64,000 bases of DNA from Candidatus Omnitrophota bacterium (GCA_030695905.1 JAUYOL010000001.1:2023-66022), one strand, 5' to 3'; numbered from the stretch's first letter, positions 7,783 through 61,112 are shown. The notes: a model not told the origin generated them from the sequence alone. Program-made: numbers and translations.

Positions 7783-8097
7783 TTATTCTTCCAATATTCC
7801 TTTTTCAACAAACAAACGTGCACATTCACTAACTTCAGATAAAAGACTTGAGAAGTCTGTAGTCTCAAATTCACCTGCCACTTTTTCTGCGATTGCTTCA
7901 ATGTTATTGTTACCATCGCAAAGCTGGAAAATTTTCGCGGCTACCGGGTTTAATATCCTCGGTAGAGCAAAATCATCCTTATGGACTATTACAATCTGGT
8001 CATTTTCCCCATCCAGTCTCCAACGTAAATTTGTGGCTATCCTGGGTTTACTCATAATGGATATCTTCAGTGACATAGGGGATAGTCCTCTCCGCAA
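7783..8097 (-). CDS. PqqD-family peptide chaperone (RiPP recognition element-like)
   Basis: 104 aa; ..LNPVAAKIFQLCDGNNNIEAIAEKVAGEF...LFVEKGILEE matches the PqqD pattern; overlaps the rSAM gene by 50 nt. Confidence 0.7.
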   Translation of the reverse strand: MRRGLSPMSLKISIMSKPRIATNLRWRLDGENDQIVIVHKDDFALPRILNPVAAKIFQLCDGNNNIEAIAEKVAGEFETTDFSSLLSEVSECARLFVEKGILEE

Positions 8098-9079
8098 TCA
8101 AATCCTTCATCTGTTCGTATTTCTTTATAAATGAAATCACTTCCGGCCGCTTCCAGCCTTCCTTTAAATATTCTTCCCAAATTTGTTTTATCGACTGCTT
8201 ACGTAAATTGCCATAAGTGAAAGGCAATAGCAAGTCTAGCCTTAAAGTTGCTTCCGGAGTAATGATGCACCAGATATTGGGAGCAGCCGAACGCACGCTA
8301 AGGTAAGTCTTTAAAACCTGCTTTTCCGGAGAGGGTGCAATGATTGTCATTTTATCAGAATATTTCTTGGCCGATTCATCCAGTGATTTAAAAAATTCGG
8401 TATACTGTTTATCGCCCAGGGCGATCGAAGCGGAATTCAGGGCAGCCCGGCCTGTCAAGACCAGCATATCCGTGACAAAATACTCCAGATCCATTTCCGC
8501 GCAGAGCGCGATCACATTACCCACATCGAAATAATTCACGCTGGAGGGCACAAAGGAAACATGGACGCGCACGCCGTTATTTTTAAGCAGTTTTACCGCA
8601 GCGACGGATTTTTCCCAGCTGCCTGCCAAGCCTCTCGCTTTTTCATGGGTTTCGGCCGTTGAGCCGTCTATGCTGATCTGCACCCACTTTACCTTGAGTC
8701 GCGCCATTTCTTTTGCCGCGGCCTCGTCTACCTTGGTGCCATTGGTAATTATCCCTACTTGTATATCATATTCTCTTAACTTGCTGACGATCTGCGCCCA
8801 GTCATCGCGTAACAGTGCCTCGCCGCCGGTAAGATAAACCTCGAATACCCCTAATTCTCCCAACTGTTGGGCGATCTTAATAGCTTCGGAGGTATTAAAT
8901 TCTTTTGCGGAAGACTTTGAATTAGCATTGTAATAACAATGTACGCAGGAAAGGTTGCATTTATTGGTCAATTCCCAAAGCCCAAAAATGGGGGCCTTAA
9001 AATACTTTGGCAGTATCTCTTTCTTATTTAAGGTATCGATGCGCTGCGTAAAACTATTTGTAAATGTTGGCTCGGACAT
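8048..9079 (-). CDS. Radical SAM enzyme, PqqE-like N-terminus, with cysteine-less SPASM-like C-terminal remnant
   Basis: CNLSCVHCY (CxxxCxxC) and GGEALL glycine-rich motif. The C-terminal ...IWCIITPEATLRLDLLLPFTYGNLRKQSIKQIW resembles the SPASM tail (GNL..sl..IW) but carries only 2 Cys in total. Confidence 0.8.
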   Translation of the reverse strand: MSEPTFTNSFTQRIDTLNKKEILPKYFKAPIFGLWELTNKCNLSCVHCYYNANSKSSAKEFNTSEAIKIAQQLGELGVFEVYLTGGEALLRDDWAQIVSKLREYDIQVGIITNGTKVDEAAAKEMARLKVKWVQISIDGSTAETHEKARGLAGSWEKSVAAVKLLKNNGVRVHVSFVPSSVNYFDVGNVIALCAEMDLEYFVTDMLVLTGRAALNSASIALGDKQYTEFFKSLDESAKKYSDKMTIIAPSPEKQVLKTYLSVRSAAPNIWCIITPEATLRLDLLLPFTYGNLRKQSIKQIWEEYLKEGWKRPEVISFIKKYEQMKDLIAERTIPYVTEDIHYE

Positions 9080-33684: not shown

Positions 33685-33770
33685 TGGTGGGCAAGGAGGG
33701 AGTTGAACCCTCACGACCTTGCGGCCAAAGGATTTTAAGTCCTTCGTGTATGCCATTCCACCACTTGCCC
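33685..33770 (-). tRNA. tRNA-Leu (anticodon TAA)
   Basis: Hand-folded cloverleaf: acceptor GGGCAAG/CTTGCCC, anticodon stem AAGGA/TCCTT, loop CTTAAAA, long variable arm, T-loop TTCAACT, encoded CCA. Confidence 0.85.
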
Positions 33771-33786
33771 ACACAATTTGCTTTTA

Positions 33787-33863
33787 TGGTGGACGCGACA
33801 GGACTTGAACCTGTGACCCCTTCCATGTCAAGGAAGTGCTCTAGCCAACTGAGCTACGCGTCC
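33787..33863 (-). tRNA. tRNA-Val (anticodon GAC)
   Basis: Acceptor GGACGCG/CGCGTCC, anticodon loop TTGACAT, T-loop TTCAAGT, encoded CCA. Confidence 0.85.
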
Positions 33864-33883
33864 ATCATCCTGCTTCATAAATT

Positions 33884-33958
33884 TGGAGGCGCGGAGCGGA
33901 ATTGAACCGCTGTATAGGAGTTTTGCAGACTCCTGCCTTACCGCTTGGCTACCGCGCC
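33884..33958 (-). tRNA. tRNA-Cys (anticodon GCA)
   Basis: Acceptor GGCGCGG/CCGCGCC, anticodon loop CTGCAAA, T-loop TTCAATT, encoded CCA. Confidence 0.85.
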
Positions 33959-39788: not shown

Positions 39789-41372
39789 TTATGTCTTTTT
39801 CAATATTACAGACTGCTCAACTATTGTCAGCACAGTATTCACCACCCAGTAAAGCACCATACCGGAGGGCATGTTATAAAATATGAACCCAAACATTATC
39901 GGCATTATGACAAGCATTATCTTTTGCTGCTGTCTTTGCTCTTCGGTAACGGCTCCGCCCATAACTTTAGACGATATCTTCTGCTGAACAACCATAAGCG
40001 CTACCATCATCAGTGGTAATACGTTTATGCTGTTGCCGAATATCGGCAAGGAGAATGGTATGCCCACGGCGTCCGGCATAGAAAGATCGCTTATCCATAA
40101 AAAGCTGGCGCCCCTTAAATCTATCGATTTTGTAAGCGCCTGGTATAACGCGACAAATATCGGCATTTGAAGTAAAAGAGGCAGGCAACCACTTAATGGA
40201 TTTATCTTATATTTTTTGTACAGCTCTAATACTTCTTTATTGAGTTTTTGCGGATTATCTTTGTTCTGCGCCTTGAGCTTTTCCATTTGTGGATGCAGTT
40301 CGTGCATCTTCTGCATAGACTGGAAACTTTTTAATGTGAGAGGGAAGAGCACTATATTTAAGAATATCGATATAAGTATTATCGACAGCCCCCAGTTGTG
40401 AACGAGCTTATAGAAGAAAGCTGTGATCACCAGCAACAGCTTTGCTATGCCACCAAAAAATCCATAATTTATCGACTCTTCAAATTCTAAGCCTAACTTC
40501 TTGAGTTCCGCACCGATACTTGGACCCGCATATAAAACGAATTTATTCTCCACTGAAGAATTTGCGGGGATCAAAAGCTTTTCCATTTCGATTCCGGAAT
40601 ATATCTTATCTCCTGCGGCATATCCGTGATACTGACTTTTTGTTTGCCCATACGGCTTCATTATGAGCGAGAAATATCTTGTTTTTGCCGCAACCCAACT
40701 AACTATCCCTGGATTTACAATAACATTTTTGTTGGGTCTTTTGAAACCAACCGTCTTACCATCAACTTTTGAGATTACCTCAATTAGATTCTTGTCCTCG
40801 GTCCTTGGTTCAACCAGGCCCGATCCGGATATAATTTTGTATCCGAGTTCGGCAGGAGACGATGAGTAGTTTTTCACTAAGAGTTGTAACTCTATTACAT
40901 TGCTTGAGTTGCGTAAAGTATATATTTTTACTATCTCCAAATTCTTTATCGCCAGGGTGTAAATAATCTTGTTGTCATCGCTATCAAGTTTATATGCCAT
41001 TTGATTCAATGGCAAAGCGCCAAGCGTGTCATTAATGGAAAAAAGATAGTTCGAGGGGGTTTTTTCTTCAACCAGCGGCATCGGGTCGTTAGATTTCAGT
41101 TTTTTATAGTTCCTTAACTCTATTTTCTTGATAGCGCCGCCGATATTGCTGAATGTAACTATATATCTGTCGGTAGATGCCAAAAACTCCTTTTCGTCAG
41201 CGGGAGGGGTTGGCGTAAGATACTGTATATTTTCAACCTCTTTTTCTTTTACCACCGCGGCTTCCTGCGTCTTACCGGGCATGGGCGCTTGTTTTGGCGA
41301 CGGAAACAGGTATTGGAACCCCACTATTATAAGCACTGAGAAGGCTATAGCTAAAATCAGTTTTTTTTCCAT
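39789..41372 (-). CDS. yidC: Membrane protein insertase YidC
   Basis: 527 aa; N-terminal TM, large periplasmic domain, 5-TM C-terminal core. Confidence 0.85.
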   Translation of the reverse strand: MEKKLILAIAFSVLIIVGFQYLFPSPKQAPMPGKTQEAAVVKEKEVENIQYLTPTPPADEKEFLASTDRYIVTFSNIGGAIKKIELRNYKKLKSNDPMPLVEEKTPSNYLFSINDTLGALPLNQMAYKLDSDDNKIIYTLAIKNLEIVKIYTLRNSSNVIELQLLVKNYSSSPAELGYKIISGSGLVEPRTEDKNLIEVISKVDGKTVGFKRPNKNVIVNPGIVSWVAAKTRYFSLIMKPYGQTKSQYHGYAAGDKIYSGIEMEKLLIPANSSVENKFVLYAGPSIGAELKKLGLEFEESINYGFFGGIAKLLLVITAFFYKLVHNWGLSIILISIFLNIVLFPLTLKSFQSMQKMHELHPQMEKLKAQNKDNPQKLNKEVLELYKKYKINPLSGCLPLLLQMPIFVALYQALTKSIDLRGASFLWISDLSMPDAVGIPFSLPIFGNSINVLPLMMVALMVVQQKISSKVMGGAVTEEQRQQQKIMLVIMPIMFGFIFYNMPSGMVLYWVVNTVLTIVEQSVILKKT

Positions 41373-41390
41373 GATATTCCTTTATATTGT

Positions 41391-41600
41391 TTACTTTACA
41401 GGGTCATATCCGCCGCGTGAGAACGGGTTGCAGCGTAAAACTCTCCAAATGCTTCTTACGCCGCCGGAGATTACCCCGTGTTTTTGAACAGCCTCTATGG
41501 CATATTCTGAACAGGACGGATAAAATCTGCAGCAACGTATGTTTATTATTGACAAATACTTACGATAAAACTTCAAGGCCGATATTACTATATACTTCAT
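41391..41600 (-). CDS. yidD: Membrane protein insertion efficiency factor YidD
   Basis: 69 aa; LKFYRKYLS...[11 protein letters not shown]. Confidence 0.8.
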
Positions 41601-41983
41601 ACTAATATCCTTGCTTTTCTGGCCAGGTTTAAAAAAATGTTTTCGGCATCCTTATAAGAAAATTTTACCGCGGGATCTTTTCTCACAACGAGTGTCATGT
41701 CAAATCCGTTTTTGAGTTTCCCCTTGGTCAGTCGAAAAACCTCACGGAACAATCTGCGCACACGGTTGCGCCTAAAAGCTTTCTTGATGCTCCTGGAACT
41801 TATCGAAAACCCTATACGGTTTAGGCTTAAGGTGTTGGGCAGGACTTTTAGAACAAACGGCCCGCTGGATAATGAGCTTCCGGATTTATAGATCTTCCTG
41901 AATTCGCCCGTTTTTATCAGGCGCTCTTTTTTTGGGAAAGTCCGAGGACCAGATAATGCAGTTTTCTCGTCGGAGCCCATCAT
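41597..41983 (-). CDS. rnpA: RNase P protein component
   Basis: 128 aa, basic; rpmH-rnpA-yidD-yidC synteny. Confidence 0.8.
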
Positions 41984-42117
41984 ACGGTGAGCTTATATCT
42001 GCCCTTCTGTCTTCGTCTTTTTAAAACAGCTCTGCCATGGCGCGTGCGCATTTTCTTCCTGAATCCGTGCGTTCTCTTTCTCTTAATATTAGAGCCGGCT
42101 TTTAAAGTATACTTCAT
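41980..42117 (-). CDS. rpmH: 50S ribosomal protein L34 (not in ORF track)
   Basis: Hand translation [45 protein letters not shown]; stop TGA overlaps the rnpA ATG (ATGA). Confidence 0.75.
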
Positions 42118-42325
42118 TGGTTTGGTCCTTTCGTAAATTTATTGGAAGATTGATTATACCACAACGTCTTGCCGAGTCAATCTTTTTGTTTTTGCTTGCA
42201 ATTACAATTTTTTTCCTCTATAATGGGTGCGATTCTGGAAGGTTTTTGTTAACAACCTGTGTATAACCTATGTGCTACATATGGAAAAACGGCGTATTCA
42301 CTGTGGATAATTTTTGGCAGGATAA
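42118..42325. other. oriC / dnaA promoter region with DnaA boxes
   Basis: TGTGGATAA (42302-42310) and TGTGTATAA (42258-42266) are reverse complements of TTATCCACA-type boxes. Promoter TTGCAA-N17-TATAAT at 42195-42223; AT-rich; divergent rpmH and dnaA. Confidence 0.6.
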
Positions 42326-43699
42326 ATGACAAGCAACGACTCTTCAATCTGGCTCAGGGCCAGAGAATTTATAAAGAAAGATCTCGATAACGACCAGGTA
42401 TTTAATATTTGGTTCGGCCCTATCAGGCTTGTGTCTTCGACAGAAAGCTCCATAACGCTGGAGGTCCAGAACAAGTTATTCCAGGAGATGCTTCTCGACC
42501 GCTATCTGAAGATCATAAATTCCAGCGTCGCTAAATCGTGCGGCAAGGAGATGCGCGTTGAATTCGTATTAACGGAGTCTTCCGACGCGCCCAAACAGGC
42601 GCAGCCTCAGGATATACCAAAAACTCCCGGCAAACCATTCTGGCCTTTTGCGCGCGAAAAACAGGATACCGGCAAAGAGATAGGCTTAAACCCGAGATAT
42701 ACATTCGATAGCTTTGTCGTCGGGCCAAGCAACCGGTTCGCGCATGCCGCGACAAACGCCGTATGCGATTCCCCCGCAAAAGCATATAATCCTTTGTTCA
42801 TCTACGGCGGCGTCGGTTTGGGTAAGACCCATCTAATGCACGCTATCGGCCACAAGGCTTTACAAAGGGCTCCGAAGACAAAAATATTATACATATCCAG
42901 CGAGGACTTTACAAACCAACTCATAGCTTCTATACAAAACAGGACCACCATGAAGTTCCGGGAAAAATACCGCAATGTCGATATCCTTCTCATAGATGAT
43001 ATACATTTTATCGCCGGCAAGGAGTCGACACAGGAAGAATTTTTCCATACATTCAATACTCTTTACGACGCGCATAAGCAGATAGTCGTTTCCAGCGACA
43101 GGCCGCCAAAAGAGATACAGTCTCTCGAGGAAAGGCTTGTCTCCAGGTTTGAGTGGGGGCTTGTCACCGACATCCAGCCGCCTGATTTTGAAACGCGAAT
43201 GGCCATATTGAAGAAAAAGTCCGAGCGCGACGGAATAGTTTTGCCCGACGATGTATACTACTTCCTGGCGGAGAAAGTAAAGTCTAACATCCGCGAGCTT
43301 GAAGGTGCGCTCATACGCGTTGTGGCATACGCGAAGCTTATAGGCAGAGAGATAACCGTGGATATGGTTAAAGAGGTTTTAAAAGACATGATCCGTGAAG
43401 GTGAAAAAAATATAACGATCGATTTAATACAGAAAAAGGTGTGTGAGTATTTTGATATCAAGCTATCTGATATGAAGGTAAAAAAGCGTTCGCGGGGCAT
43501 AGCATACCCAAGACAGATAGCAATGTATTTAGCCCGTCAGCTCACGGATTACTCTCTACCTGAAATAGGCGAATACTTTGGCGGCAGGGACCATACCACG
43601 GTAATGCATGCCTTTGATAAGATACAAAATGATCTAAAGATTAAGAAGGGTTTGAGTAGTTTGATTGAAAGGGTTACCGAAAACATACAGTCGTCTTAG
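42326..43699 (+). CDS. dnaA: Chromosomal replication initiator DnaA
   Basis: GGVGLGKTHLMHAIG Walker A; AAA+ domain III and C-terminal DNA-binding domain IV. Confidence 0.95.
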   Translation: MTSNDSSIWLRAREFIKKDLDNDQVFNIWFGPIRLVSSTESSITLEVQNKLFQEMLLDRYLKIINSSVAKSCGKEMRVEFVLTESSDAPKQAQPQDIPKTPGKPFWPFAREKQDTGKEIGLNPRYTFDSFVVGPSNRFAHAATNAVCDSPAKAYNPLFIYGGVGLGKTHLMHAIGHKALQRAPKTKILYISSEDFTNQLIASIQNRTTMKFREKYRNVDILLIDDIHFIAGKESTQEEFFHTFNTLYDAHKQIVVSSDRPPKEIQSLEERLVSRFEWGLVTDIQPPDFETRMAILKKKSERDGIVLPDDVYYFLAEKVKSNIRELEGALIRVVAYAKLIGREITVDMVKEVLKDMIREGEKNITIDLIQKKVCEYFDIKLSDMKVKKRSRGIAYPRQIAMYLARQLTDYSLPEIGEYFGGRDHTTVMHAFDKIQNDLKIKKGLSSLIERVTENIQSS

Positions 43700-44952: not shown

Positions 44953-49076
<4,124 letters not shown>

Positions 49077-51693: not shown

Positions 51694-51771
51694 GCCCCCA
51701 TCGTCTAGCCTGGTCTAGGACATCAGATTTTCATTCTGATGACACCGGTTCGAATCCGGTTGGGGGTGCCA
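51694..51771 (+). tRNA. tRNA-Glu (anticodon TTC)
   Basis: Acceptor GCCCCCA/TGGGGGT, D-arm GTCTAGCCTGGTCTAGGAC, anticodon loop TTTTCAT, T-arm ACCGGTTCGAATCCGGT, encoded CCA; starts 8 nt after the gyrA stop. Confidence 0.85.
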
Positions 51772-51874
51772 CTCCTTAAAAAAACACCCAAATACAACAC
51801 CCCGGTTAGGAATTTCAAAAGCTGGCTATCTTTTCATTGACTTAACGTTATTCTGTGGTACAATCTCCCTACGT

Positions 51875-54800
51875 ATGTTTCTATACAATATTAGATATAG
51901 CGTATTATTTAAGGCTATGGCCCTGGCGTTGGTGTGCCTATTTGTAGCTAGTGATCTCATTTACGCTACCCCAGAACTCCGCACTGCTTCTCAATCCACT
52001 CTCGCCGCACTTACACAACTTAACAAGCCTGAATTTAGAGAAGCAGCTGCCATCAGAGAATGTCTGCTTGCATCCAAAGGAGCGGATAAGTATATAAATG
52101 AGCAAATCCCCAAAGAAAAAGGCATCTTTGGCAAAGAATGGGAATCTCAGCGAACCGAACGCGTAAACATATATGATACAGAGCTAAAAGGTCGAATAAA
52201 CGGTAAGCCAATAGCAGGACTGGATTCCGTGCTTTTTATCAAGCTCGCAGGGTTTTTGGCTTCCACAGGCCAGCCATTTCAGGCTGATCTTGCCGGCAAA
52301 GGTTATGACGGTCTTCCAGTAGTGTATATCGACAGCGCATTGTGCAATACACCTGACAAATGTATTCAAAAGCACGAGATAGACCAAATCCTGCAATGGG
52401 AAGACCTAAGAGTAAATATGCTACATATCGCCGATAAGAAAGCGATGAGAAGATGGGTCAGAAGATATATCAACGATGCCGACCAGGCGCTTCAAGGTAC
52501 CCCTTACGAAGGAATGAACTCACGCCAGATCGCAAAACTCTTCCACGGATATTCCTATCCTTTAAGAGATCCCTATAAAAAATTATTCCGTGAAACTGAC
52601 TATGACTACGAATATATAAGGACGATGCTCTCCATTTATGGTACCGACGAAGAATCGGGCGAGCTTAAACTAGTCGCGCGGCGCGAAGAAACCCCCGCGC
52701 CCCACGTTAGGCCAGCGGCCGCGGGAACTGGAGTAGCACAAAATATGCTATCCCCGGAGTTTACCTGGCTTATCATGACTTCCCAGGTCACTACTGACAT
52801 AGAATCGATTTCTACTTATTTGAAGCCGATACAGGACACGATAGAAAGTTTAGACAGCTCCGGCGCAAGATTTTCACCTTATACCAGAAAGGTTTTAGGT
52901 GATGCGCGCAAACAAGGAGCTTACCTTTGCGAACAATTAAAAGTTATGATCCAGAAAACAAAAGGATTGTCCTCTGGGCCCATAAACAGACAAGCAGCAG
53001 CTTCCCTGCTTAATAAAATCGACAATGGTGGGAGGTTTGACGAGGTATTGGGTATCTTTTACCACGATGTATGGGATATCATAAGAGAAACACCTCCCAC
53101 AGAGCAAGCAGAATCATTAAAAGATGCATTTGAAAAGCTCCATAGCCGGCATGACCGTATCCGTTCGCAATTACTCGCCCTTGCACATCCGCAGATATTT
53201 ACAGGTAAAACGGGCGCGCTTTGCTACCCTCCCTGGCTTATAAAAATTCCTGAAGCACCGAGAAGTCATATCGAAATTAATCTTTGGGAGCTTCTAAGCG
53301 GGCGCCGTGCCATCTCATATGATTCTTGGCCGTCAAAGCATGAAAGACGAGAACACATTCTCCCAATCGAAAATGAACACAGGTTTTTTGAAAGACGCTT
53401 TGCGAAACTCCCTGAATTAATCACAAGCGGCGCATGGATGGGAATTAACAGAGACTTTAAGACTTTTGCCATAGAGCTTATCTATCTTTACGGGCTTTCT
53501 CTGGATTATTTTCGAATTCAGAAGCAAGTCTTGGAAAAGGCCGCGATAGATCCAGACCAGGTAAAGGACGTTCTCGACCTGGGAACAAATTCATGGCCTT
53601 ATGCTTGGTGCTTTGAAGAAATCTTTCCCAATCTTGAAAAGGCGTATGGCATTGAGGGTAGATGGAAACATTCCAAGGAATTCCAGAATTTTTGGGCGCC
53701 CTTATCCGGCTTGGATCCGACTAAATATAAAATCATCAACGGAGACTTTCTGGAGATAGAAGAGATACCCGAACTCTGGCCGTCAAGCGAGACGGGAGGC
53801 TCTTTCGATCTTATTTTTGCGCATGGTTTTAAGCCGGACTTTAAGGTATCGAATGGCGCTAATGAAGACGCGTATTATTACAAATTATTGCTCTCCGCAA
53901 GCAGGTTGCTTAGGCCCGCGGGGCACATTGTTTTTATTATCAAAAAAGATGAATTGGATAAATTCCGTAAGATGCTCGCGCTTTTAGAGGGTCGGAGCTG
54001 GGCCGACAGGGTGATGAACATGGCGGGCTTTGCGCAAATAATTTATGAAGATGTCGATGTTTTTGTTATTTCTCAAGAAGACCTTGTCAGACATGAGAAG
54101 ATTTTGGAGCAAGGAGTTCAAGCCCGCGAGGCCAGACACGAATATGCCGAAGCAGCCGCATTTTATGAAAGGCAAAGCGATCTCGAGGCCGATACGGCCA
54201 AGCCCTATGTTTTAGCGGGAGATGAGTGGCTGAAGGGGGCCGAGTCATTCATAAAGACAGCAAAAAAATGGCGTCGGAAGCCCTCCAACGATGATGAGTG
54301 GATCAGCTGGATGCTTGAAAACGCTATCGATCGATATAGCCGCTATTTTAAAGCGCCAAAACAACGGAAAGATGATATGTATGTCCGTCAACAACTCGAT
54401 AGGATCTATGAAATAATAATAACAATGCGTCAGGGGTTTTTTGATGACGAAGAAAGCCGATTGTTTGTTTCGAAATTCCCAAAAAAGCCCGCTACCGATT
54501 CACAGCGGGATCAGCTGATAAATTATTTTTTCCTTAAAGACTCCGGTGGAGATCCTTTAGAAAGCGCTCCGGGCAGCCTGCCATTAAATGTGCCACAGAA
54601 TACCGATGCGGACCGTTTAATAGGCGAGGCCCTGGCAGAAATCGAAGCCGGGCAGCGTTTGTTGGTGCAAAAAAAGGCAGAGGCGAAAGCACAAGGAAAT
54701 GCGAGTATTTTGTGGAACCATATACGGGAAAGCAGCATCCCCGATTATGAGCTGCGCCTTCGACTGCTATATCATATGGGGATTTTAAGGGGCAATCTTT

Positions 54801-57475
54801 TGTATCCTTTGATGGGCGATGATTGTATTCCCGCTTATTTTACAGCCACCTTCGGTATAAACTATTACACAGGTATCGGCAAAACCAAAGATATCGAAGC
54901 CGCGGAAAAGGCGTTGTTAAAAAATGGGTTGCCTCCTGCTTACAAGGGTCGGCCAAAGGATCTTACGGTAATGCCGGTTAATGCGTTTGATCGCGGGGTA
55001 TACTTCCCGGCGCTGACAAAAAAAGGCGGTATAGACACGGTTCTGGTAAAAGGATTGACATCCTGGTCGATGACTTATGAAGGCAGGCGCTCAAATAAAG
55101 ACATTTGGGAGCTAGTCGAAAAGATCGGCAACAATCTGCTCCGGCCGGGAGGTTGCATAATAATTGCTGACGAAAAGGATTTGTGGCTGGCACAGTACCT
55201 TGAAGAGAAATTAGGTTATGAAGACTTGCTGGCCGGGCAGGGACATCAAAGAATCAAGCAGGCATTAAACAATGAGTGCGCCAGCTATGAGGCGTACCTG
55301 GGGGATATGTTCACTATTTTTGGAAGGGTGCCAATAAGGGTTTTGAGGAAACCCGATTTTTCCCCCGGCCCGACCGTGGAAACCGGAGTAGCACAAAATG
55401 AACCGTCCCCAAAAGCCACAAAAGTCTTCGGCCGTAACACGGTAGGCGCTGCCCAATTGCCGCCGGGATATGACAAGAGAGACCCGGGCCTGGTCGGGCA
55501 AATTAAGATACTACGGCTAAGGCAAGCGGATGGAAAAATTAAATATTGGGCTAATCAGATAGTAGGTCTCGATCGCAGGATAGGAATAATAAAAGAAAAA
55601 CAGGAATACATAATCGGGTACACAAAAAGAGCGGACCCATTGATTCTTTTAGCGGTGTGTGGTAATAAGCTGGCGGGGTTTCTTTTGGCATCCGGAGCAG
55701 GGGATGGTTTTGGCATAGATTTCTTTGGAGTCGATCCCTCTATTATAAATCACGGCATAGGTACTTCTCTATTATCCAAAGCGCTTAAGATAGCAAAAAC
55801 AAATGGTAAGAAAAAAGCTTCATTACGTGTCGAGACCAGGAGGGCGAGGGCCTCAGGAATTTATGAAAGACTTGGTTTCAAGCGGGATGTAGGGTCTTCA
55901 GATAGCTCATGGACTACCATGATATTAGATCTTACTTCAAGATCTAATTCGATATCAAGCCCTCGTTTCGGGCCAGGTGCGATGTCTGCAGATCAGCCGT
56001 TTGACGATAAGCTCGTTCCGAAAGACGCACCGGTGAACAATTCCGCCTCCGGTCAGCCGGCAGCACCAAAGGAAGTGGCGCCCGAAGGAACGGCACCAAA
56101 ACAACCTGACAATTCTAACCAGGTTAGCCTAACCAGGTTAGATGCTGAAGGACAGACGAGGCTCGTTCCTAAAGTCTTGCCGCAAGCATTCGCCGCCGGC
56201 CCAGGCGAAGAGATTGCTTCGGCCGCTTCCCTCCGGGCCTTGCGGCCCGTAGGGCCGGAGGCGTGGCCTCGCAATGACGAAATGTCAGAAGAAGCGGTGA
56301 TAAAAGGATCGTCTTCCGATACCGTAAGTACTGCGGAAAAAGCCGCAAAAATTCGGCGCGAATTTGTTCCCAAGGTTTATGAATTAAAGGGTGGAATTTT
56401 GAAACTCACGGAGTCTTTGCTTTTAGATCAAAAAATTGACCTGCAACATCTTGTGTCTGAGCAATTACAGATTATCTTCAATGTATTGGGAAGGATTGAA
56501 CTTGGTTCGAAAACCGCGAAAAGCTCGGAAGCAGATATTAGTCAGATTCTTCGCCGTTTTGACAAGGTACATTATTGGCTGGATCGGTTGGCAGATCCTG
56601 ATAAGCCGGATTCAGGGGGCAGTTCGTTAGTCGATTTTGCGAAGAAGAGATTATCGACAGGAACAGCCGATAGCAATCTGCCAAATCAGGGCCTTGCGGA
56701 ATTTGTCGGACAATACTATTTCAAACCAAATGCGGAAGGAGCTAAATTTAAAGAAGGTTTTGCAAAACTTCGCGAGCAATTTATACAGATTGAAACAGAA
56801 TATCGCCCATTGATAGCGTCTTTATTAGATACCGTTTTACCCACCGGGAGGGGAGATGCGGTTTGGCGCGCGAATGCGACTGATATTGAAAATGCCTTAC
56901 AGATGTTAACCAAACTTATTCCCGAGCAGGAGCAGGTAAAGGAGAAAGAGCTTACATATTACACGATACGATATGACGCGGATAAGATGCCGCCTCTCGC
57001 GGAAGAGTTGCTTAAAATATATGCCGGGCAGATACTGCCGGCGTGGCTGCCGGGCAAGGAGAGGGTTAAGCTAATTGCTACAAAAGGGCAAAGCGAGGGA
57101 ATTATATGGGTAAATTGTTATAAGGACCAGGGTAGGAGCCAATTGGCTGGGACAGGACACGTCGATATTCACTTCGATATCAATGAAGATATAAATGGCA
57201 GGGCGCTAAGGATAATGGGCATGCTAAACATAGCATTAGCCGCTTCCCATCTTCCCGATAACTTATCTACCGATGATATGGATAAATATAATGCTCTGGT
57301 ATCGTTTATTCAAAGGCAGTATAAAGATATAACAGGAGAAGATTTAACCGCGGATGCGCTAAAAAATGATAACAAAAACATCTGGATAAACTTGCCGCCC
57401 GCGGAACACGTTTCACCGGAAAGGGCCGACGAGTATTACCGCCTCACAATTACACAATTGCGGCAATCCGCGTAA
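51875..57475 (+). CDS. Giant secreted/membrane-anchored multidomain protein with GNAT acetyltransferase and two degenerate class-I methyltransferase-like modules; function unknown
   Basis: 1866 aa uninterrupted ORF with promoter TTGACT-N16-TACAAT upstream; N-terminal hydrophobic signal. MTase-like motifs: VLDLGTNS...FDLIFAHG...LLRPAGHIVF and IDTVLVKG...LLRPGGCIII. GNAT motifs NHGIGTSLL and YERLGFKRD. P/A-rich linker. Duplicated TGVAQN(M/E)xSP motif. Confidence 0.7.
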   Translation: MFLYNIRYSVLFKAMALALVCLFVASDLIYATPELRTASQSTLAALTQLNKPEFREAAAIRECLLASKGADKYINEQIPKEKGIFGKEWESQRTERVNIYDTELKGRINGKPIAGLDSVLFIKLAGFLASTGQPFQADLAGKGYDGLPVVYIDSALCNTPDKCIQKHEIDQILQWEDLRVNMLHIADKKAMRRWVRRYINDADQALQGTPYEGMNSRQIAKLFHGYSYPLRDPYKKLFRETDYDYEYIRTMLSIYGTDEESGELKLVARREETPAPHVRPAAAGTGVAQNMLSPEFTWLIMTSQVTTDIESISTYLKPIQDTIESLDSSGARFSPYTRKVLGDARKQGAYLCEQLKVMIQKTKGLSSGPINRQAAASLLNKIDNGGRFDEVLGIFYHDVWDIIRETPPTEQAESLKDAFEKLHSRHDRIRSQLLALAHPQIFTGKTGALCYPPWLIKIPEAPRSHIEINLWELLSGRRAISYDSWPSKHERREHILPIENEHRFFERRFAKLPELITSGAWMGINRDFKTFAIELIYLYGLSLDYFRIQKQVLEKAAIDPDQVKDVLDLGTNSWPYAWCFEEIFPNLEKAYGIEGRWKHSKEFQNFWAPLSGLDPTKYKIINGDFLEIEEIPELWPSSETGGSFDLIFAHGFKPDFKVSNGANEDAYYYKLLLSASRLLRPAGHIVFIIKKDELDKFRKMLALLEGRSWADRVMNMAGFAQIIYEDVDVFVISQEDLVRHEKILEQGVQAREARHEYAEAAAFYERQSDLEADTAKPYVLAGDEWLKGAESFIKTAKKWRRKPSNDDEWISWMLENAIDRYSRYFKAPKQRKDDMYVRQQLDRIYEIIITMRQGFFDDEESRLFVSKFPKKPATDSQRDQLINYFFLKDSGGDPLESAPGSLPLNVPQNTDADRLIGEALAEIEAGQRLLVQKKAEAKAQGNASILWNHIRESSIPDYELRLRLLYHMGILRGNLLYPLMGDDCIPAYFTATFGINYYTGIGKTKDIEAAEKALLKNGLPPAYKGRPKDLTVMPVNAFDRGVYFPALTKKGGIDTVLVKGLTSWSMTYEGRRSNKDIWELVEKIGNNLLRPGGCIIIADEKDLWLAQYLEEKLGYEDLLAGQGHQRIKQALNNECASYEAYLGDMFTIFGRVPIRVLRKPDFSPGPTVETGVAQNEPSPKATKVFGRNTVGAAQLPPGYDKRDPGLVGQIKILRLRQADGKIKYWANQIVGLDRRIGIIKEKQEYIIGYTKRADPLILLAVCGNKLAGFLLASGAGDGFGIDFFGVDPSIINHGIGTSLLSKALKIAKTNGKKKASLRVETRRARASGIYERLGFKRDVGSSDSSWTTMILDLTSRSNSISSPRFGPGAMSADQPFDDKLVPKDAPVNNSASGQPAAPKEVAPEGTAPKQPDNSNQVSLTRLDAEGQTRLVPKVLPQAFAAGPGEEIASAASLRALRPVGPEAWPRNDEMSEEAVIKGSSSDTVSTAEKAAKIRREFVPKVYELKGGILKLTESLLLDQKIDLQHLVSEQLQIIFNVLGRIELGSKTAKSSEADISQILRRFDKVHYWLDRLADPDKPDSGGSSLVDFAKKRLSTGTADSNLPNQGLAEFVGQYYFKPNAEGAKFKEGFAKLREQFIQIETEYRPLIASLLDTVLPTGRGDAVWRANATDIENALQMLTKLIPEQEQVKEKELTYYTIRYDADKMPPLAEELLKIYAGQILPAWLPGKERVKLIATKGQSEGIIWVNCYKDQGRSQLAGTGHVDIHFDINEDINGRALRIMGMLNIALAASHLPDNLSTDDMDKYNALVSFIQRQYKDITGEDLTADALKNDNKNIWINLPPAEHVSPERADEYYRLTITQLRQSA

Positions 57476-57518
57476 TTCTGATGGAAGAGAGCATGGGCAG
57501 TATGTTATATTATGTAGT

Positions 57519-60449: not shown

Positions 60450-61112
60450 ATGCCCGGAACGCTATATGTAGTTGCCACGCCCATAGGTAATTTAGAAGAC
60501 ATTACACTGCGCGCAATAGACACTTTGAAAAAAGTCGACCTTATCGCGGCAGAAGATACCCGCCACACAAAGATACTTCTTGATAGATACGATATCCACG
60601 TACCCATGACCAGCTATTTCGAATACAATAAAATCCAAAAATCCGATTATTTGTTAAAGGCATTGCAGGAAGGCAAGTCGGTTGCTCTTGTTTCCGACGC
60701 CGGCACACCCGGCATATCGGATCCGGGTTATACTATTATTAAACTATGTATAGATAGCAATATACCGGTAGTGCCGATACCGGGCCCGTCAGGGCTGATT
60801 ACGGCGCTTACCGTTTCAGGTAAGTCGACAAGCCAGTTCACATTTGCCGGCTTCCTGTCTCCAAAACCGATTAAGCGGAAAAATCAACTAAAAAAATTGC
60901 AATCAGAGGAGAGAACGGTCGTGCTATATGAGTCTCCACATAGAATGGAGAAGCTTTTGGATGACATTTTGGAGATATATGGCGATACACAACTCGTTAT
61001 AGTTAGGGAAGTTACAAAGAAATTTGAAGAGATAAGGCGAGAAAAAGTAAGTTTTTCTATAGAGCATTTTAAATCGCACAAGCCCAAAGGCGAATTTGTA
61101 GTAATTATCTAA
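60450..61112 (+). CDS. rsmI: 16S rRNA 2'-O-methyltransferase RsmI-like (tetrapyrrole-methylase fold)
   Basis: LYVVATPIGNLEDIT...AAEDTRHT; 220 aa, shorter than typical. Confidence 0.75.
   Translation: MPGTLYVVATPIGNLEDITLRAIDTLKKVDLIAAEDTRHTKILLDRYDIHVPMTSYFEYNKIQKSDYLLKALQEGKSVALVSDAGTPGISDPGYTIIKLCIDSNIPVVPIPGPSGLITALTVSGKSTSQFTFAGFLSPKPIKRKNQLKKLQSEERTVVLYESPHRMEKLLDDILEIYGDTQLVIVREVTKKFEEIRREKVSFSIEHFKSHKPKGEFVVII

What the first reader, a model, noticed from the sequence alone, without database searches (positions are those of the whole stretch)
51875..57475. Orphan 1866-aa secreted multidomain protein (GNAT plus two methyltransferase-like modules) inserted after tRNA-Glu
This is a single 5.6-kb uninterrupted ORF with its own near-consensus promoter (TTGACT-N16-TACAAT). 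It lies between the gyrA-tRNA-Glu unit and nagA/glmS. It has a predicted signal/anchor, two degenerate class-I SAM-MTase-like modules and a clear GNAT domain. It also has a Pro/Ala-rich linker, a roughly 550-aa C-terminal region with no recognisable motifs, and an internal duplicated TGVAQN(M/E)xSP motif that is also duplicated at the DNA level (GGAGTAGCACAAAAT at about 52729 and 55385). tRNA 3' flanks are classic insertion hotspots. No integrase is present, so it may be an old acquisition or a lineage-specific giant protein. Many catalytic motifs look degenerate. It could be a pseudoenzyme scaffold, a surface-modification enzyme or an effector.
Basis: partly seen in the sequence, partly recalled or inferred. 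Interest (0 to 1): 0.7.

Follow-up and report, generated by a model that had tools for sequence, protein, structure and literature searches.

The report
Capped cargo-swapping exported protein of Omnitrophota
The 1866-aa ORF is not an orphan island gene: it belongs to an apparently undescribed Omnitrophota family in which a fixed promoter, signal peptide, N-terminal domain and C-terminal domain frame an enzyme payload that is replaced wholesale between relatives.

Summary
The ORF (51875-57475, +, 1866 aa), the upstream tRNA-Glu, the promoter-like site, the GNAT domain and the duplicated TGVAQN motif are all real.

- Not an orphan. Its first ~283 aa ("N-cap") and last ~205 aa ("C-cap") define a family seen only in Omnitrophota or PVC-labelled MAGs: 95 cluster representatives carry the N-cap and 43 carry both caps (878-4308 aa).
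- The caps co-vary, but the sequence between them is replaced. Pairs with 70-80% identical caps have unrelated middles (starch synthase, amylase, PGM, PPDK, PLD, SGNH, MutS, kinase, MTase, GNAT).
- A ~70-nt promoter cassette (UP-like A-tract, TTGACTTAAC, TGnTATAAT ending 8-10 nt before the ATG, no SD) travels with the gene to unrelated loci. This implies a near-leaderless mRNA.
- The N-terminus is a conserved Sec-type signal peptide.
- Neither cap matches Pfam, NCBIfam or any solved fold convincingly.
- One methyltransferase-like module is supported by transitive homology. The other is not.
- The tRNA-island idea fails. There is no att repeat, no integrase and host-like composition, and a relative has a family member with different cargo at the same gyrA-tRNA-Glu junction.

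Function is inferred: an exported, constant-frame carrier of cofactor-dependent enzymes, possibly acting on or in another cell.

The parts
51694..51771 (+). tRNA-Glu(ttc). It is a neighbour of the gene, not an integration site.
   Evidence: ARAGORN. No repeat of its 3' end occurs downstream of the ORF. The tRNA is 74/78 identical, and in the same position, upstream of the family gene in L004.
51805..51874 (+). Conserved family promoter cassette: GTTAGG, an A-tract, CTATCTTTTCA, -35 TTGACT(TAAC) at 51837-51846, TG at 51856-51857, -10 TACAAT at 51859-51864, then 10 nt to the ATG with no Shine-Dalgarno. This implies a near-leaderless mRNA.
   Evidence: Sequence. Best-scoring site in the region. 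The same cassette precedes family genes at 10 other unrelated loci. TTGACTTAAC occurs exactly once in the window. Only 3 of 39 long ORFs in the window have a -10-like box 5-12 nt from the ATG.
51875..51970 (+). Conserved Sec-type signal peptide (aa 1-32). The n-region contains R7 and K13, the h-region is AMALALVCLFVA, the c-region is SDLIYA, and cleavage is likely before T33 (inferred).
   Evidence: Across 73 family N-termini: mean net charge +3.3 before a 12-aa hydrophobic core (KD 2.75), followed by N-D-I-[AS]-W-A. The AF2 model has a helix at 4-25 and then a disordered stretch at 30-46.
51971..52723 (+). N-cap domain (aa 33-283), an alpha/beta domain. L43, L139, Y151, D153, H167 and E176 are invariant. 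The consensus is TGQFAHVGL..PVIYIDS...KHExDEIxQWExLR.
52727..52744 (+). TGVAQN junction motif, copy 1 (aa 285-290). It includes the 15-mer at 52730-52744.
52745..53362 (+). Orphan spacer M1 (aa 291-496).
   Evidence: No homologue in the 1.84-billion representative search except a partial overlap with P0075. No Pfam hit.
53363..54109 (+). Cargo module A (aa 497-745): a divergent class-I SAM-methyltransferase-like module.
   Evidence: 11 relatives, some standalone (~300 aa) and some inside 4.9-6.2 kaa proteins. Relative P0080 passes the Pfam cut-offs for Methyltransf_25 and Methyltransf_11, and P0096 and P0083 give sub-threshold MTase hits. The profile finds only methyltransferases among weak PDB hits. 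LDLG..W, GIE and GDF are conserved.
54110..54709 (+). Orphan spacer M3 (aa 746-945).
   Evidence: No homologues. No Pfam hit.
54710..55378 (+). Cargo module B (aa 946-1168): a recurrent module of unknown fold. The consensus is GNxLYPxxGxDxFPSYF...GGxDVLFIKGL...LLKxGGFIVIAD.
   Evidence: 26 relatives, some standalone (237-340 aa) and some inside 1.6-6.0 kaa proteins. No Pfam hit. No PDB-sequence hit. hhalign against module A is in register but only 8.9% probability.
55382..55399 (+). TGVAQN junction motif, copy 2 (aa 1170-1175). It includes the 15-mer at 55385-55399. Together with copy 1 it brackets exactly the 885-codon block M1-A-M3-B.
55412..55909 (+). Cargo GNAT N-acetyltransferase domain (aa 1180-1345; Pfam core 1244-1338).
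   Evidence: PF00583 E 7e-10, above the cut-off, plus PF13508 and PF13673. RimI-like hits fall below the NCBIfam cut-offs. PHROG acetyltransferase families.
55910..56314 (+). Pro/Ala/Ser-rich low-complexity linker (aa 1346-1480).
   Evidence: Sequence. GC 0.553 against 0.46 for the gene. No hits.
56315..56854 (+). Orphan region C1 (aa 1481-1660).
   Evidence: No hits in Pfam, among the homologues found, or elsewhere.
56855..57475 (+). C-cap domain (aa 1661-1866) plus the stop codon. It is alpha/beta and the protein ends ...EYYRLTITQLRQSA-COOH.

Best explanation
The ORF encodes a complete member of an Omnitrophota-restricted family of 'capped' modular proteins.

The constant frame has four parts:
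1. A strong promoter cassette placed 8-10 nt from the ATG, so the mRNA is leaderless or nearly so.
2. A sequence-conserved Sec-type signal peptide.
3. A ~250-aa N-cap domain.
4. A ~205-aa C-cap domain that ends exactly at the protein's C-terminus (...L-x-[A/S]-A-COOH).

Between the caps lies a payload that evolution replaces wholesale. In this gene the payload is a divergent SAM-methyltransferase-like module, a second recurrent module of unknown fold, a GNAT acetyltransferase, and orphan spacers.

Shown:
- the family exists;
- the caps always sit at the two termini;
- the caps are co-inherited;
- cargo is replaced between near-identical caps;
- the promoter cassette is conserved;
- the N-terminus has signal-peptide features.

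Inferred:
- The protein is exported through Sec, and the caps are the constant export, targeting or anchoring apparatus for a variable enzymatic payload.
- The payloads need SAM, acetyl-CoA, ATP or NDP-sugars, which are absent from a periplasm. The most plausible site of action is therefore at or inside another cell (host or prey), where this protein would acetylate and methylate a target.

The gene is a long-standing resident of the origin-proximal gyrA-tRNA-Glu locus, not a recent insertion.
For: Family and termini:
- Homologues share only aa 1-283 and aa 1661-1866.
- 95 representatives carry the N-cap, 94 of them at the N-terminus. 43 carry the C-cap, all within 10 aa of the protein end and none without an N-cap. 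Nine more end in ...RLLQLLxAA.

Co-inheritance and cargo replacement:
- Cap identities correlate (Spearman 0.54, p 2e-59).
- P0009/P0007 have caps 80% and 68% identical with no middle similarity. P0015/P0007 have 72% and 78%, also with none.
- Only 84 of 780 pairs share any middle similarity, and the query shares none.

Cargo repertoire:
- Glyco_transf_5 in 8 of 30 members, plus amylase, phosphorylase, GT4, PGM, PPDK, PLD, SGNH, MutS_V, ARMT1, MTases and kinase.
- This is the same Pfam vocabulary reported for Omnitrophota long proteins (bioRxiv 10.64898/2026.06.07.730766).

Promoter cassette:
- Conserved at 10 other loci and specific to this gene within the window.

Signal peptide:
- n/h/c structure across 73 N-termini. 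AF2 helix at 4-25 followed by a disordered stretch.

Taxonomy:
- All 12 genome hits are Omnitrophota MAGs or 'uncultured Planctomycetia' MAGs. None is in viral contigs. There are no PADLOC hits.

Resident locus:
- No att repeat and host-like GC/GC3.
- The same gyrA-tail/tRNA-Glu junction in L004 with different cargo.
- The gene is embedded between dnaA-dnaN-gyrB-gyrA and nagA-glmS-rsmI-pyrR-pyrB.
Against: - Export is predicted from sequence features only. No signal-peptide predictor or experiment was available.
- Much of the cargo looks like ordinary cytoplasmic metabolism (glycogen synthase, PGM, PPDK, MutS). The genes sit in housekeeping neighbourhoods, and no secretion-system, chaperone or partner gene recurs beside them. 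This fits an intracellular, membrane-tethered role at least as naturally.
- Neither cap resembles a known secretion, translocation or receptor-binding domain, so their role is a guess.
- 'Leaderless' is inferred from promoter geometry, not from a mapped transcription start.
- About 9 long N-cap proteins lack any C-cap-like end. They may be truncated, but this was not verified.
- The family census rests on cluster representatives and pattern-limited scans. Two database searches were uninformative.
Confidence: 0.6

Rival explanations
1. Self-directed, membrane-tethered enzyme scaffold. The N-terminal hydrophobic segment is an uncleaved anchor, and the caps organise or oligomerise variable enzymes at the producer's own inner membrane. 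These enzymes (glycogen metabolism, regulatory acetyl- and methyl-transfer) serve the cell itself and are not delivered to another cell.
For: - Cargo is dominated by housekeeping-type, cofactor-dependent enzymes.
- The genes lie among core genes: here about 9.5 kb from dnaA, and in L001 after the dcw/ftsA cluster.
- No recurrent secretion or partner genes.
Against: - The n-region carries a mean net charge of +3.3, and a small-x-small c-region follows a short 12-aa hydrophobic core. This predicts translocation of the C-terminal bulk, not cytoplasmic retention.
- There is only one hydrophobic segment.
- On the periplasmic face the enzymes would lack SAM, acetyl-CoA, ATP and NDP-sugars.
Confidence: 0.25
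2. Polymorphic toxin-like weapon for competition between bacteria. The conserved trafficking ends deliver variable toxic enzymes (PLD, SGNH lipase, kinase, acetyltransferase), with cargo diversification driven by an arms race.
For: - Wholesale replacement of the payload between conserved trafficking parts.
- Some cargos (PLDc_2, GDSL lipase, kinase, GNAT) belong to classes used as toxins or effectors elsewhere.
- An export signal is present.
Against: - There is no immunity-like small ORF downstream. nagA starts 43 nt after the stop codon, and nothing recurs next to family members.
- The variable part is internal, not C-terminal.
- No Rhs/YD, PAAR, VgrG, TPS or RHS-like trafficking domains and no PADLOC hits.
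- The most frequent cargos are starch-synthase-like GT-B enzymes, amylase and PGM, which are not typical toxins.
Confidence: 0.08
3. One reading: a lineage-specific orphan acquired by insertion at the tRNA-Glu 3' flank, possibly a decaying pseudoenzyme.
For: - The position immediately 3' of a tRNA.
- The full-length architecture is unique: a cluster of 1 member on 1 contig.
- Three internal stretches (M1, M3, C1) have no homologues.
Against: - Both ends belong to a large family.
- No integrase, no att repeat, and host-like composition.
- The same junction is occupied by a family member in a relative.
- The ORF is intact over 5.6 kb, with both caps in frame.
Confidence: 0.04

Closest known systems
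Omnitrophota long or giant 'multi-enzyme' proteins (West-Roberts et al. 2023, bioRxiv 10.1101/2023.11.21.568195; bioRxiv 10.64898/2026.06.07.730766)
   Same: - Same phylum.
- Same domain vocabulary: MTase PF08241, GNAT PF00583, starch synthase PF08323, GT1, PGM, radical SAM, PPDK_N.
- Mosaic, largely sequence-unique architectures.
- An N-terminal signal peptide or TM segment in most members.
[quoted passage not shown]
- Modules A and B of this ORF recur inside 4.5-6.2 kaa proteins.
   Different: - Those studies treat proteins of 10 kaa and above (or giants above 30 kaa). This protein is 1.87 kaa, and the capped family spans 0.9-4.3 kaa.
- In the passages searched, neither paper describes a conserved N-cap/C-cap pair, cargo replacement between them, or a shared leaderless promoter cassette.
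MARTX toxins (Vibrio and others)
   Same: Works alike in outline: conserved N- and C-terminal regions flank a variable, strain-specific set of internal enzymatic effector domains that are exchanged by recombination. This comparison rests on my own knowledge.
   Different: - MARTX toxins have glycine-rich repeat regions, an inositol-phosphate-activated cysteine protease domain and type I secretion without a Sec signal.
- Here there are no repeats, no CPD or other peptidase hit and no rtx-type transporter neighbours. A Sec-type signal peptide is present instead.
- It is not a member.
Polymorphic toxin systems (Rhs, CdiA and similar)
   Same: Conserved trafficking portion plus a swappable enzymatic portion. 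Diversification is by cassette replacement.
   Different: - The variable part is internal and the extreme C-terminus is conserved.
- There is no adjacent immunity gene.
- No known trafficking domains are present.
Sec-dependent surface or secreted proteins with a conserved C-terminal sorting domain (type V autotransporters, type IX CTD substrates)
   Same: The linear logic is the same: signal peptide, then variable passenger, then conserved C-terminal domain.
   Different: - The C-cap model is a 205-aa alpha/beta domain with a partial thioredoxin-like topology. It is neither a beta-barrel nor an Ig-like beta-sandwich.
- A conserved 250-aa N-cap is also present.
- T9SS is a Bacteroidota system (own knowledge).
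GNAT acetyltransferases (RimI-like) and class-I SAM methyltransferases
   Same: The GNAT domain passes the Pfam thresholds. Relatives of module A pass the Pfam MTase thresholds.
   Different: - All NCBIfam equivalog scores are far below their cut-offs (RimI 27.9 against 86.4), so no specific substrate can be assigned.
- The domains are embedded in an exported 1866-aa protein.

Membership tests
Capped modular protein family of Omnitrophota (defined here) | N-cap domain beginning at the protein N-terminus, directly after a conserved signal peptide | tested here: met
   Query aa 1-283 align to residues ~1-290 of homologues at 40-54% identity. 94 of 95 N-caps are N-terminal.
Capped modular protein family of Omnitrophota (defined here) | C-cap domain ending at the last residue (...L-x-[A/S]-A-COOH) | tested here: met
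   Query aa 1661-1866 end in ...LRQSA. All 43 C-caps end 0-10 aa from the protein terminus.
Capped modular protein family of Omnitrophota (defined here) | Conserved promoter cassette: TTGACTTAAC-N12-TGnTATAAT, then 8-10 nt to the ATG | tested here: met
   Window 51837-51874, aligned with 10 other loci.
GNAT superfamily (PF00583) | Profile match above the curated threshold | tested here: met
   39.6 bits against 20.7, aa 1244-1335. PF13508 and PF13673 are also above their cut-offs.
GNAT superfamily (PF00583) | Acetyl-CoA pyrophosphate-binding motif A, (Q/R)xxGxG/A | tested here: inconclusive
   The sequence has N-H-G-I-G-T at about aa 1290-1295. GxG is present, but the first position is N and not Q/R. 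Activity is not testable here.
Class-I SAM-dependent methyltransferase (module A, aa 497-745) | Significant profile match of the query itself | tested here: not met
   Best hit is Methyltransf_29 at E 0.12. The PDB sequence search found nothing relevant.
Class-I SAM-dependent methyltransferase (module A, aa 497-745) | Homology to proteins that do pass the family thresholds, and conservation of the SAM-binding motifs | tested here: met
   Relatives match at E 1e-14 to 1e-10. P0080 passes Methyltransf_25 (28.6 against 27) and Methyltransf_11 (21.7 against 21.2). The profile finds only MTases among weak PDB hits. LDLG, GIE and GDF are conserved.
Class-I SAM-dependent methyltransferase (module B, aa 946-1168) | Any significant sequence or profile link to methyltransferases | tested here: not met
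   Five standalone relatives give no Pfam hit. The profile against PDB finds none. hhalign against module A gives 8.9% probability.
tRNA-linked genomic island | Integrase or recombinase at the island border | tested here: not met
   The ORF is flanked directly by tRNA-Glu/gyrA and by nagA.
tRNA-linked genomic island | Direct repeat of the tRNA 3' end at the distal border | tested here: not met
   No match of 11 nt or more from the tRNA region lies near 57.4-58 kb.
tRNA-linked genomic island | Deviant composition relative to the flanks | tested here: not met
   GC 0.461 and GC3 0.453, against flanking genes at 0.42-0.48 and 0.43-0.54. The GC profile is flat.
tRNA-linked genomic island | Presence/absence polymorphism at the junction among relatives | tested here: inconclusive
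   Only one related junction was recovered (L004). It is occupied by a family member with different cargo. No empty site was seen.
Zincin metallopeptidase (considered for the N-cap) | HExxH motif on the active-site helix | tested here: not met
   The helix at 163-182 carries H167-E168-I-D-Q171, and the family consensus is HExDE. H167 and E176 are invariant, but there is no second His.
Zincin metallopeptidase (considered for the N-cap) | Fold similarity | tested here: inconclusive
MARTX toxin | Glycine-rich N- and C-terminal repeats, a CPD autoprocessing domain, and type I secretion | tested here: not met
   No internal repeats. No peptidase or RTX Pfam hit. A Sec-type signal is present. No transporter neighbours.
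Polymorphic toxin-immunity system | Variable C-terminal toxin followed by an immunity gene | tested here: not met
   The C-terminus is the conserved part. nagA follows after 43 nt. No recurrent or small downstream ORF.
Autotransporter or T9SS substrate | C-terminal beta-barrel translocator, or an Ig-like CTD | tested here: not met
Omnitrophota giant proteins as catalogued in the literature | Length of at least 10 kaa (catalogue threshold) | tested here: not met
   1866 aa. The threshold is stated in the preprint.
Omnitrophota giant proteins as catalogued in the literature | Mosaic of MTase, GNAT and sugar-metabolism Pfams behind a signal peptide or TM segment | tested here: met
   compared.

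The most novel reading that the evidence does not exclude
The N-cap and C-cap together are a previously unknown delivery device. In this reading it is a constant two-ended frame, transcribed from a dedicated leaderless promoter and exported by Sec. It carries interchangeable cofactor-dependent enzymes out of the ultra-small Omnitrophota cell and into or onto a host or prey cell. The free ...L-x-A-A carboxy-terminus and the invariant Y-x-D/H/E site of the N-cap would serve recognition or processing. If so, this family is a compact, tractable model for how the enigmatic giant multi-enzyme proteins of this phylum are targeted, and the first defined 'cassette-exchange' effector platform with both ends fixed.
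Probability: 0.25. Interest if true: 0.85.

Novelty: new variant of a known kind. Interest (0 to 1): 0.6.

Why it matters
Omnitrophota are uncultivated, ultra-small bacteria that are probably host-dependent or predatory. Their huge mosaic 'multi-enzyme' proteins are an open puzzle: it is not known whether they act inside or outside the cell, or how they are targeted.

This locus exposes a short, well-delimited subfamily (0.9-4.3 kaa) with three fixed, recognisable elements: a promoter cassette, a signal peptide plus N-cap, and a C-cap. It also gives clear evidence that the enzymatic payload between them is exchanged.

That turns a vague phenomenon into testable objects:
- two new domain families with confident models;
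- a predicted leaderless transcription start;
- a predicted signal-peptidase site;
- natural 'swap' series of cargos in otherwise near-identical frames.

It also corrects the annotation. The database name 'GNAT family N-acetyltransferase' describes under 10% of the protein.

Tried and rejected
- **tRNA-island model.** I searched for att-like repeats of the tRNA region, compared GC and GC3, and looked for an integrase. All were negative.
- **Phage or defence origin.** PADLOC gave no hits, PHROGs hit only the GNAT domain, and the viral contig scan found no relatives.
- **TGVAQN as a family-wide linker or cleavage motif.** It is absent from all other members.
- **Conserved partner genes.** Clustering of flanking ORFs over 23 loci found only antisense artefacts and one local synteny group.
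- **Conserved 3' element.** None found.
- **'Leaderless is general in this organism'.** Rejected: 3 of 39 ORFs have the geometry, against 14 of 39 with SD-like sequences.
- **Uninformative searches.** The word-index profile search with the N-cap alignment returned one protein. The C-cap single-sequence search returned nothing, not even the query's own protein.
Full report
**1. What is in the sequence**

A single ATG-initiated ORF runs from 51875 to 57475 on the + strand and encodes 1866 aa.

- tRNA-Glu(ttc) lies at 51694-51771.
- Upstream are dnaA, dnaN, an intein-containing gyrB, and gyrA. Downstream are nagA (starting 43 nt after the stop codon), glmS, rsmI, pyrR and pyrB.
- The GC-skew minimum at about 41-43 kb, between yidC(-) and dnaA(+), marks the probable replication origin. 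The gene is therefore origin-proximal, on the leading strand, and embedded among core genes.
- The TTGACT-N16-TACAAT site (51837-51864, with a TG extension) exists and is the best-scoring promoter-like site in the region. The count of such sites is not above chance.
- Pfam recognises only a GNAT domain at aa 1244-1338.
- The TGVAQN motif occurs at aa 285 and aa 1170, with an exact 15-nt repeat at 52730 and 55385.

**2. It is not an orphan**

The database copy (P0001, 'MAG: GNAT family N-acetyltransferase [Candidatus Omnitrophota bacterium]') is a singleton. Nine other large proteins match it only at aa 1-283 and aa 1661-1866.

An exhaustive HMMER scan with aa 1-1199 resolved three independent modules:
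- the N-terminal 'N-cap';
- module A (aa ~497-745);
- module B (aa ~946-1168).

Local iterative searches over the 128 retrieved proteins gave these counts:
- 95 proteins have an N-cap, and 94 of these are at the very N-terminus.
- 43 have a C-cap. All end within 0-10 residues of the protein end, and none lacks an N-cap.
- Of the 60 N-cap proteins of 850 aa or more, 42 have a detected C-cap.
- Nine more of these end in ...RLLQLLxAA, a divergent version of the C-cap terminus ...YYRLTIxQLxQAA.

Full-length members span 878-4308 aa (median 1772 aa). All genome hits are Omnitrophota MAGs or MAGs labelled 'uncultured Planctomycetia'. None is viral.

**3. The middle is a swappable payload**

Between the caps, family members carry starch-synthase-like GT-B domains (8 of 30), alpha-amylase, phosphorylase-like domains, GT4, PGM, PPDK, PLD, SGNH lipase, MutS-V, ARMT1 phosphatase, HEAT repeats, kinase and methyltransferases.

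N-cap and C-cap pairwise identities are correlated (Spearman 0.54, p 2e-59). The pairs with the most similar caps have no detectable similarity in the middle:
- P0009/P0007: 80% and 68% identical caps.
- P0015/P0007: 72% and 78% identical caps.

Only 84 of 780 pairs share any middle similarity, and the query shares none. The caps are therefore inherited together while the cargo is replaced.

**4. A promoter cassette travels with the gene**

The 60-110 nt upstream of family genes at unrelated loci align as GTTAGG ... A-tract ... gCTAtCTTTCtA-TTGACTTAAC-N12-TGnTATAAT-N8-10-ATG.

A second group of loci has GTTACCTTCC-tgTGACAt ... TATAnT-N7-9-ATG.

In both groups the -10 box ends 7-10 nt before the start codon and there is no Shine-Dalgarno sequence. 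The transcript should therefore be leaderless or nearly so. This is inferred from geometry.

The arrangement is not the organism's general style. TTGACTTAAC occurs once in 64 kb. Only 3 of 39 long ORFs have such geometry, against 14 of 39 with SD-like sequences. Conservation stops at the stop codon.

**5. The ends**

*Signal peptide.* Across 73 N-termini the pattern is a textbook Sec signal: net charge +3.3, a 12-residue hydrophobic core (mean KD 2.75), then N-D-I-[A/S]-W-A. It is unusually conserved in sequence (...YSILFKAIALxLVCLF...). The window protein has ...SDLIYA|TP.

Both caps are, for practical purposes, new domain families.

**6. This protein's cargo**

- Module A is a divergent class-I SAM-methyltransferase by transitive evidence. 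Its standalone relative P0080 passes the Pfam cut-offs, and P0096 and P0083 give sub-threshold MTase hits. The profile recovers only MTases among weak PDB hits. The LDLG, GIE and GDF positions are conserved.
- Module B is a recurrent module (26 relatives, some standalone). It has no detectable link to any known family. An in-register alignment to module A reaches only 8.9% probability.
- The GNAT domain is genuine, but no NCBIfam equivalog threshold is approached, so its substrate is unknown.
- M1, M3 and C1 are orphan stretches.
- The two TGVAQN copies bracket exactly the 885-codon block M1-A-M3-B. This could be the scar of a block insertion or duplication, but the statistical support is weak (8 of 300 shuffles) and no other member has the motif.

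**7. Not a tRNA island**

- There is no integrase and no att-like repeat.
- GC and GC3 fall within the range of the flanking genes.
- The closest homologue (P0002, locus L004) lies behind a Lys-rich gyrA-like tail (...KIRRK*, against ...AIRRKK* here) and a tRNA-Glu that is 74/78 identical. A small GIY-YIG ORF is interposed, and the cargo is a different 2.4 kaa.
- Other members sit elsewhere, for example after the dcw/ftsA/pilZ cluster in L001.
- No partner gene recurs.

**8. Interpretation**

The anatomy is that of a constant frame carrying a variable payload. The frame consists of the promoter, the signal peptide plus N-cap, and the C-cap.

The N-terminus predicts export, whereas the payloads need cytoplasmic cofactors. 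My preferred reading is that the enzymes act at or in another cell. This fits the proposed host-dependent or predatory lifestyle of Omnitrophota and the effector hypotheses for their long proteins.

The main rival is a self-directed, membrane-tethered enzyme scaffold. It is favoured by the housekeeping flavour of the cargo and of the neighbourhoods.

MARTX toxins are the nearest functional analogy, with conserved ends and swappable internal effectors. All of their defining features are absent, so this is a resemblance and not membership.

**9. Relation to the literature and novelty**

Two preprints describe Omnitrophota long or giant proteins as mosaics of exactly these Pfam families, mostly with signal peptides or TM helices, and with unresolved function.

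This ORF is a small relative of that phenomenon. In the library searched I found no description of the cap pair, the cargo replacement between caps, or the shared leaderless promoter.

I therefore rate it a new variant of a known kind, of moderate to high interest. The functional model remains inferential.

Noticed in passing
window 45255-49076 (+): gyrB is 1273 aa because it carries an intein at about aa 448-892, with N- and C-terminal splicing-region hits. The flanking extein halves match GyrB end to end.
   Followed up: no
window ~41400-42300: The cumulative GC-skew minimum lies between yidC (39789-41372, -) and dnaA (42326-43699, +), followed by dnaN. This is the probable oriC. The capped gene lies about 9.5 kb away, co-directional with replication.
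   Followed up: partly
L004 375-653: A small GIY-YIG-like ORF (MWYVYILECRESSLYTGIATD...) lies between tRNA-Glu and the family gene in the related genome. It is absent from the window, where the tRNA-to-ATG gap is only 103 nt.
   Followed up: no
L004 922-8268: The gene call for P0002 (start at 991) is probably too short. An in-frame ATG at 922 restores the family signal peptide (MFIRKAQYNVLYKAITLGLVCLF...) and sits 9 nt after a TGaTATAAT box.
   Followed up: partly
window 52730-52744 and 55385-55399: An exact 15-nt direct repeat, about 22 nt long if 2-3 mismatches are allowed, brackets an in-frame 885-codon block (M1, module A, M3, module B). It may be a recombination or insertion junction. Significance is marginal.
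   Followed up: partly
protein P0040 (4489 aa), residues 2422-2566: The core of the N-cap domain occurs once internally in a 4.5-kaa protein that also carries module B. The N-cap fold is therefore not strictly an N-terminal leader.
   Followed up: no
C-termini of family members (e.g. P0089, P0097, P0098, P0104, P0110, P0119, P0120, P0121): Full-length members almost always end in L-x-[A/S]-A-COOH (QAA, QSA, IAA...), with nothing after it. This resembles the ssrA-type ...LAA terminus recognised by tail-specific proteases and ClpX. I have not tested this idea.
   Followed up: no
window 57476-57518: Only 43 nt separate the giant ORF from nagA, with no terminator-like hairpin on the + strand. A TTATATT box ends 7 nt before the nagA ATG. 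nagA-glmS may be read through from the strong upstream promoter, or may have their own leaderless-type start.
   Followed up: no
window 8048-9079 (-): A radical SAM/SPASM protein has TTGATTTAA...TAAAAT ending 8 nt before its ATG. It is the only other ORF in the window with clear leaderless-type geometry. It has no signal peptide and is unrelated to the family.
   Followed up: partly
window 60450-61112 (+): The rsmI ORF is 220 aa and matches only positions 2-219 of the 275-position TIGR00096 profile. It may be C-terminally short, or the downstream part may lie in another frame.
   Followed up: no
L008, L010, L020 (upstream 4 kb): Three family loci share the same three upstream genes (local synteny), whereas the other loci do not. 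This points to at least one further conserved 'home' locus for the family besides the gyrA-tRNA-Glu junction.
   Followed up: no
window 33685-33958 (-): A tRNA cluster, Leu(taa)-Val(gac)-Cys(gca).
   Followed up: no
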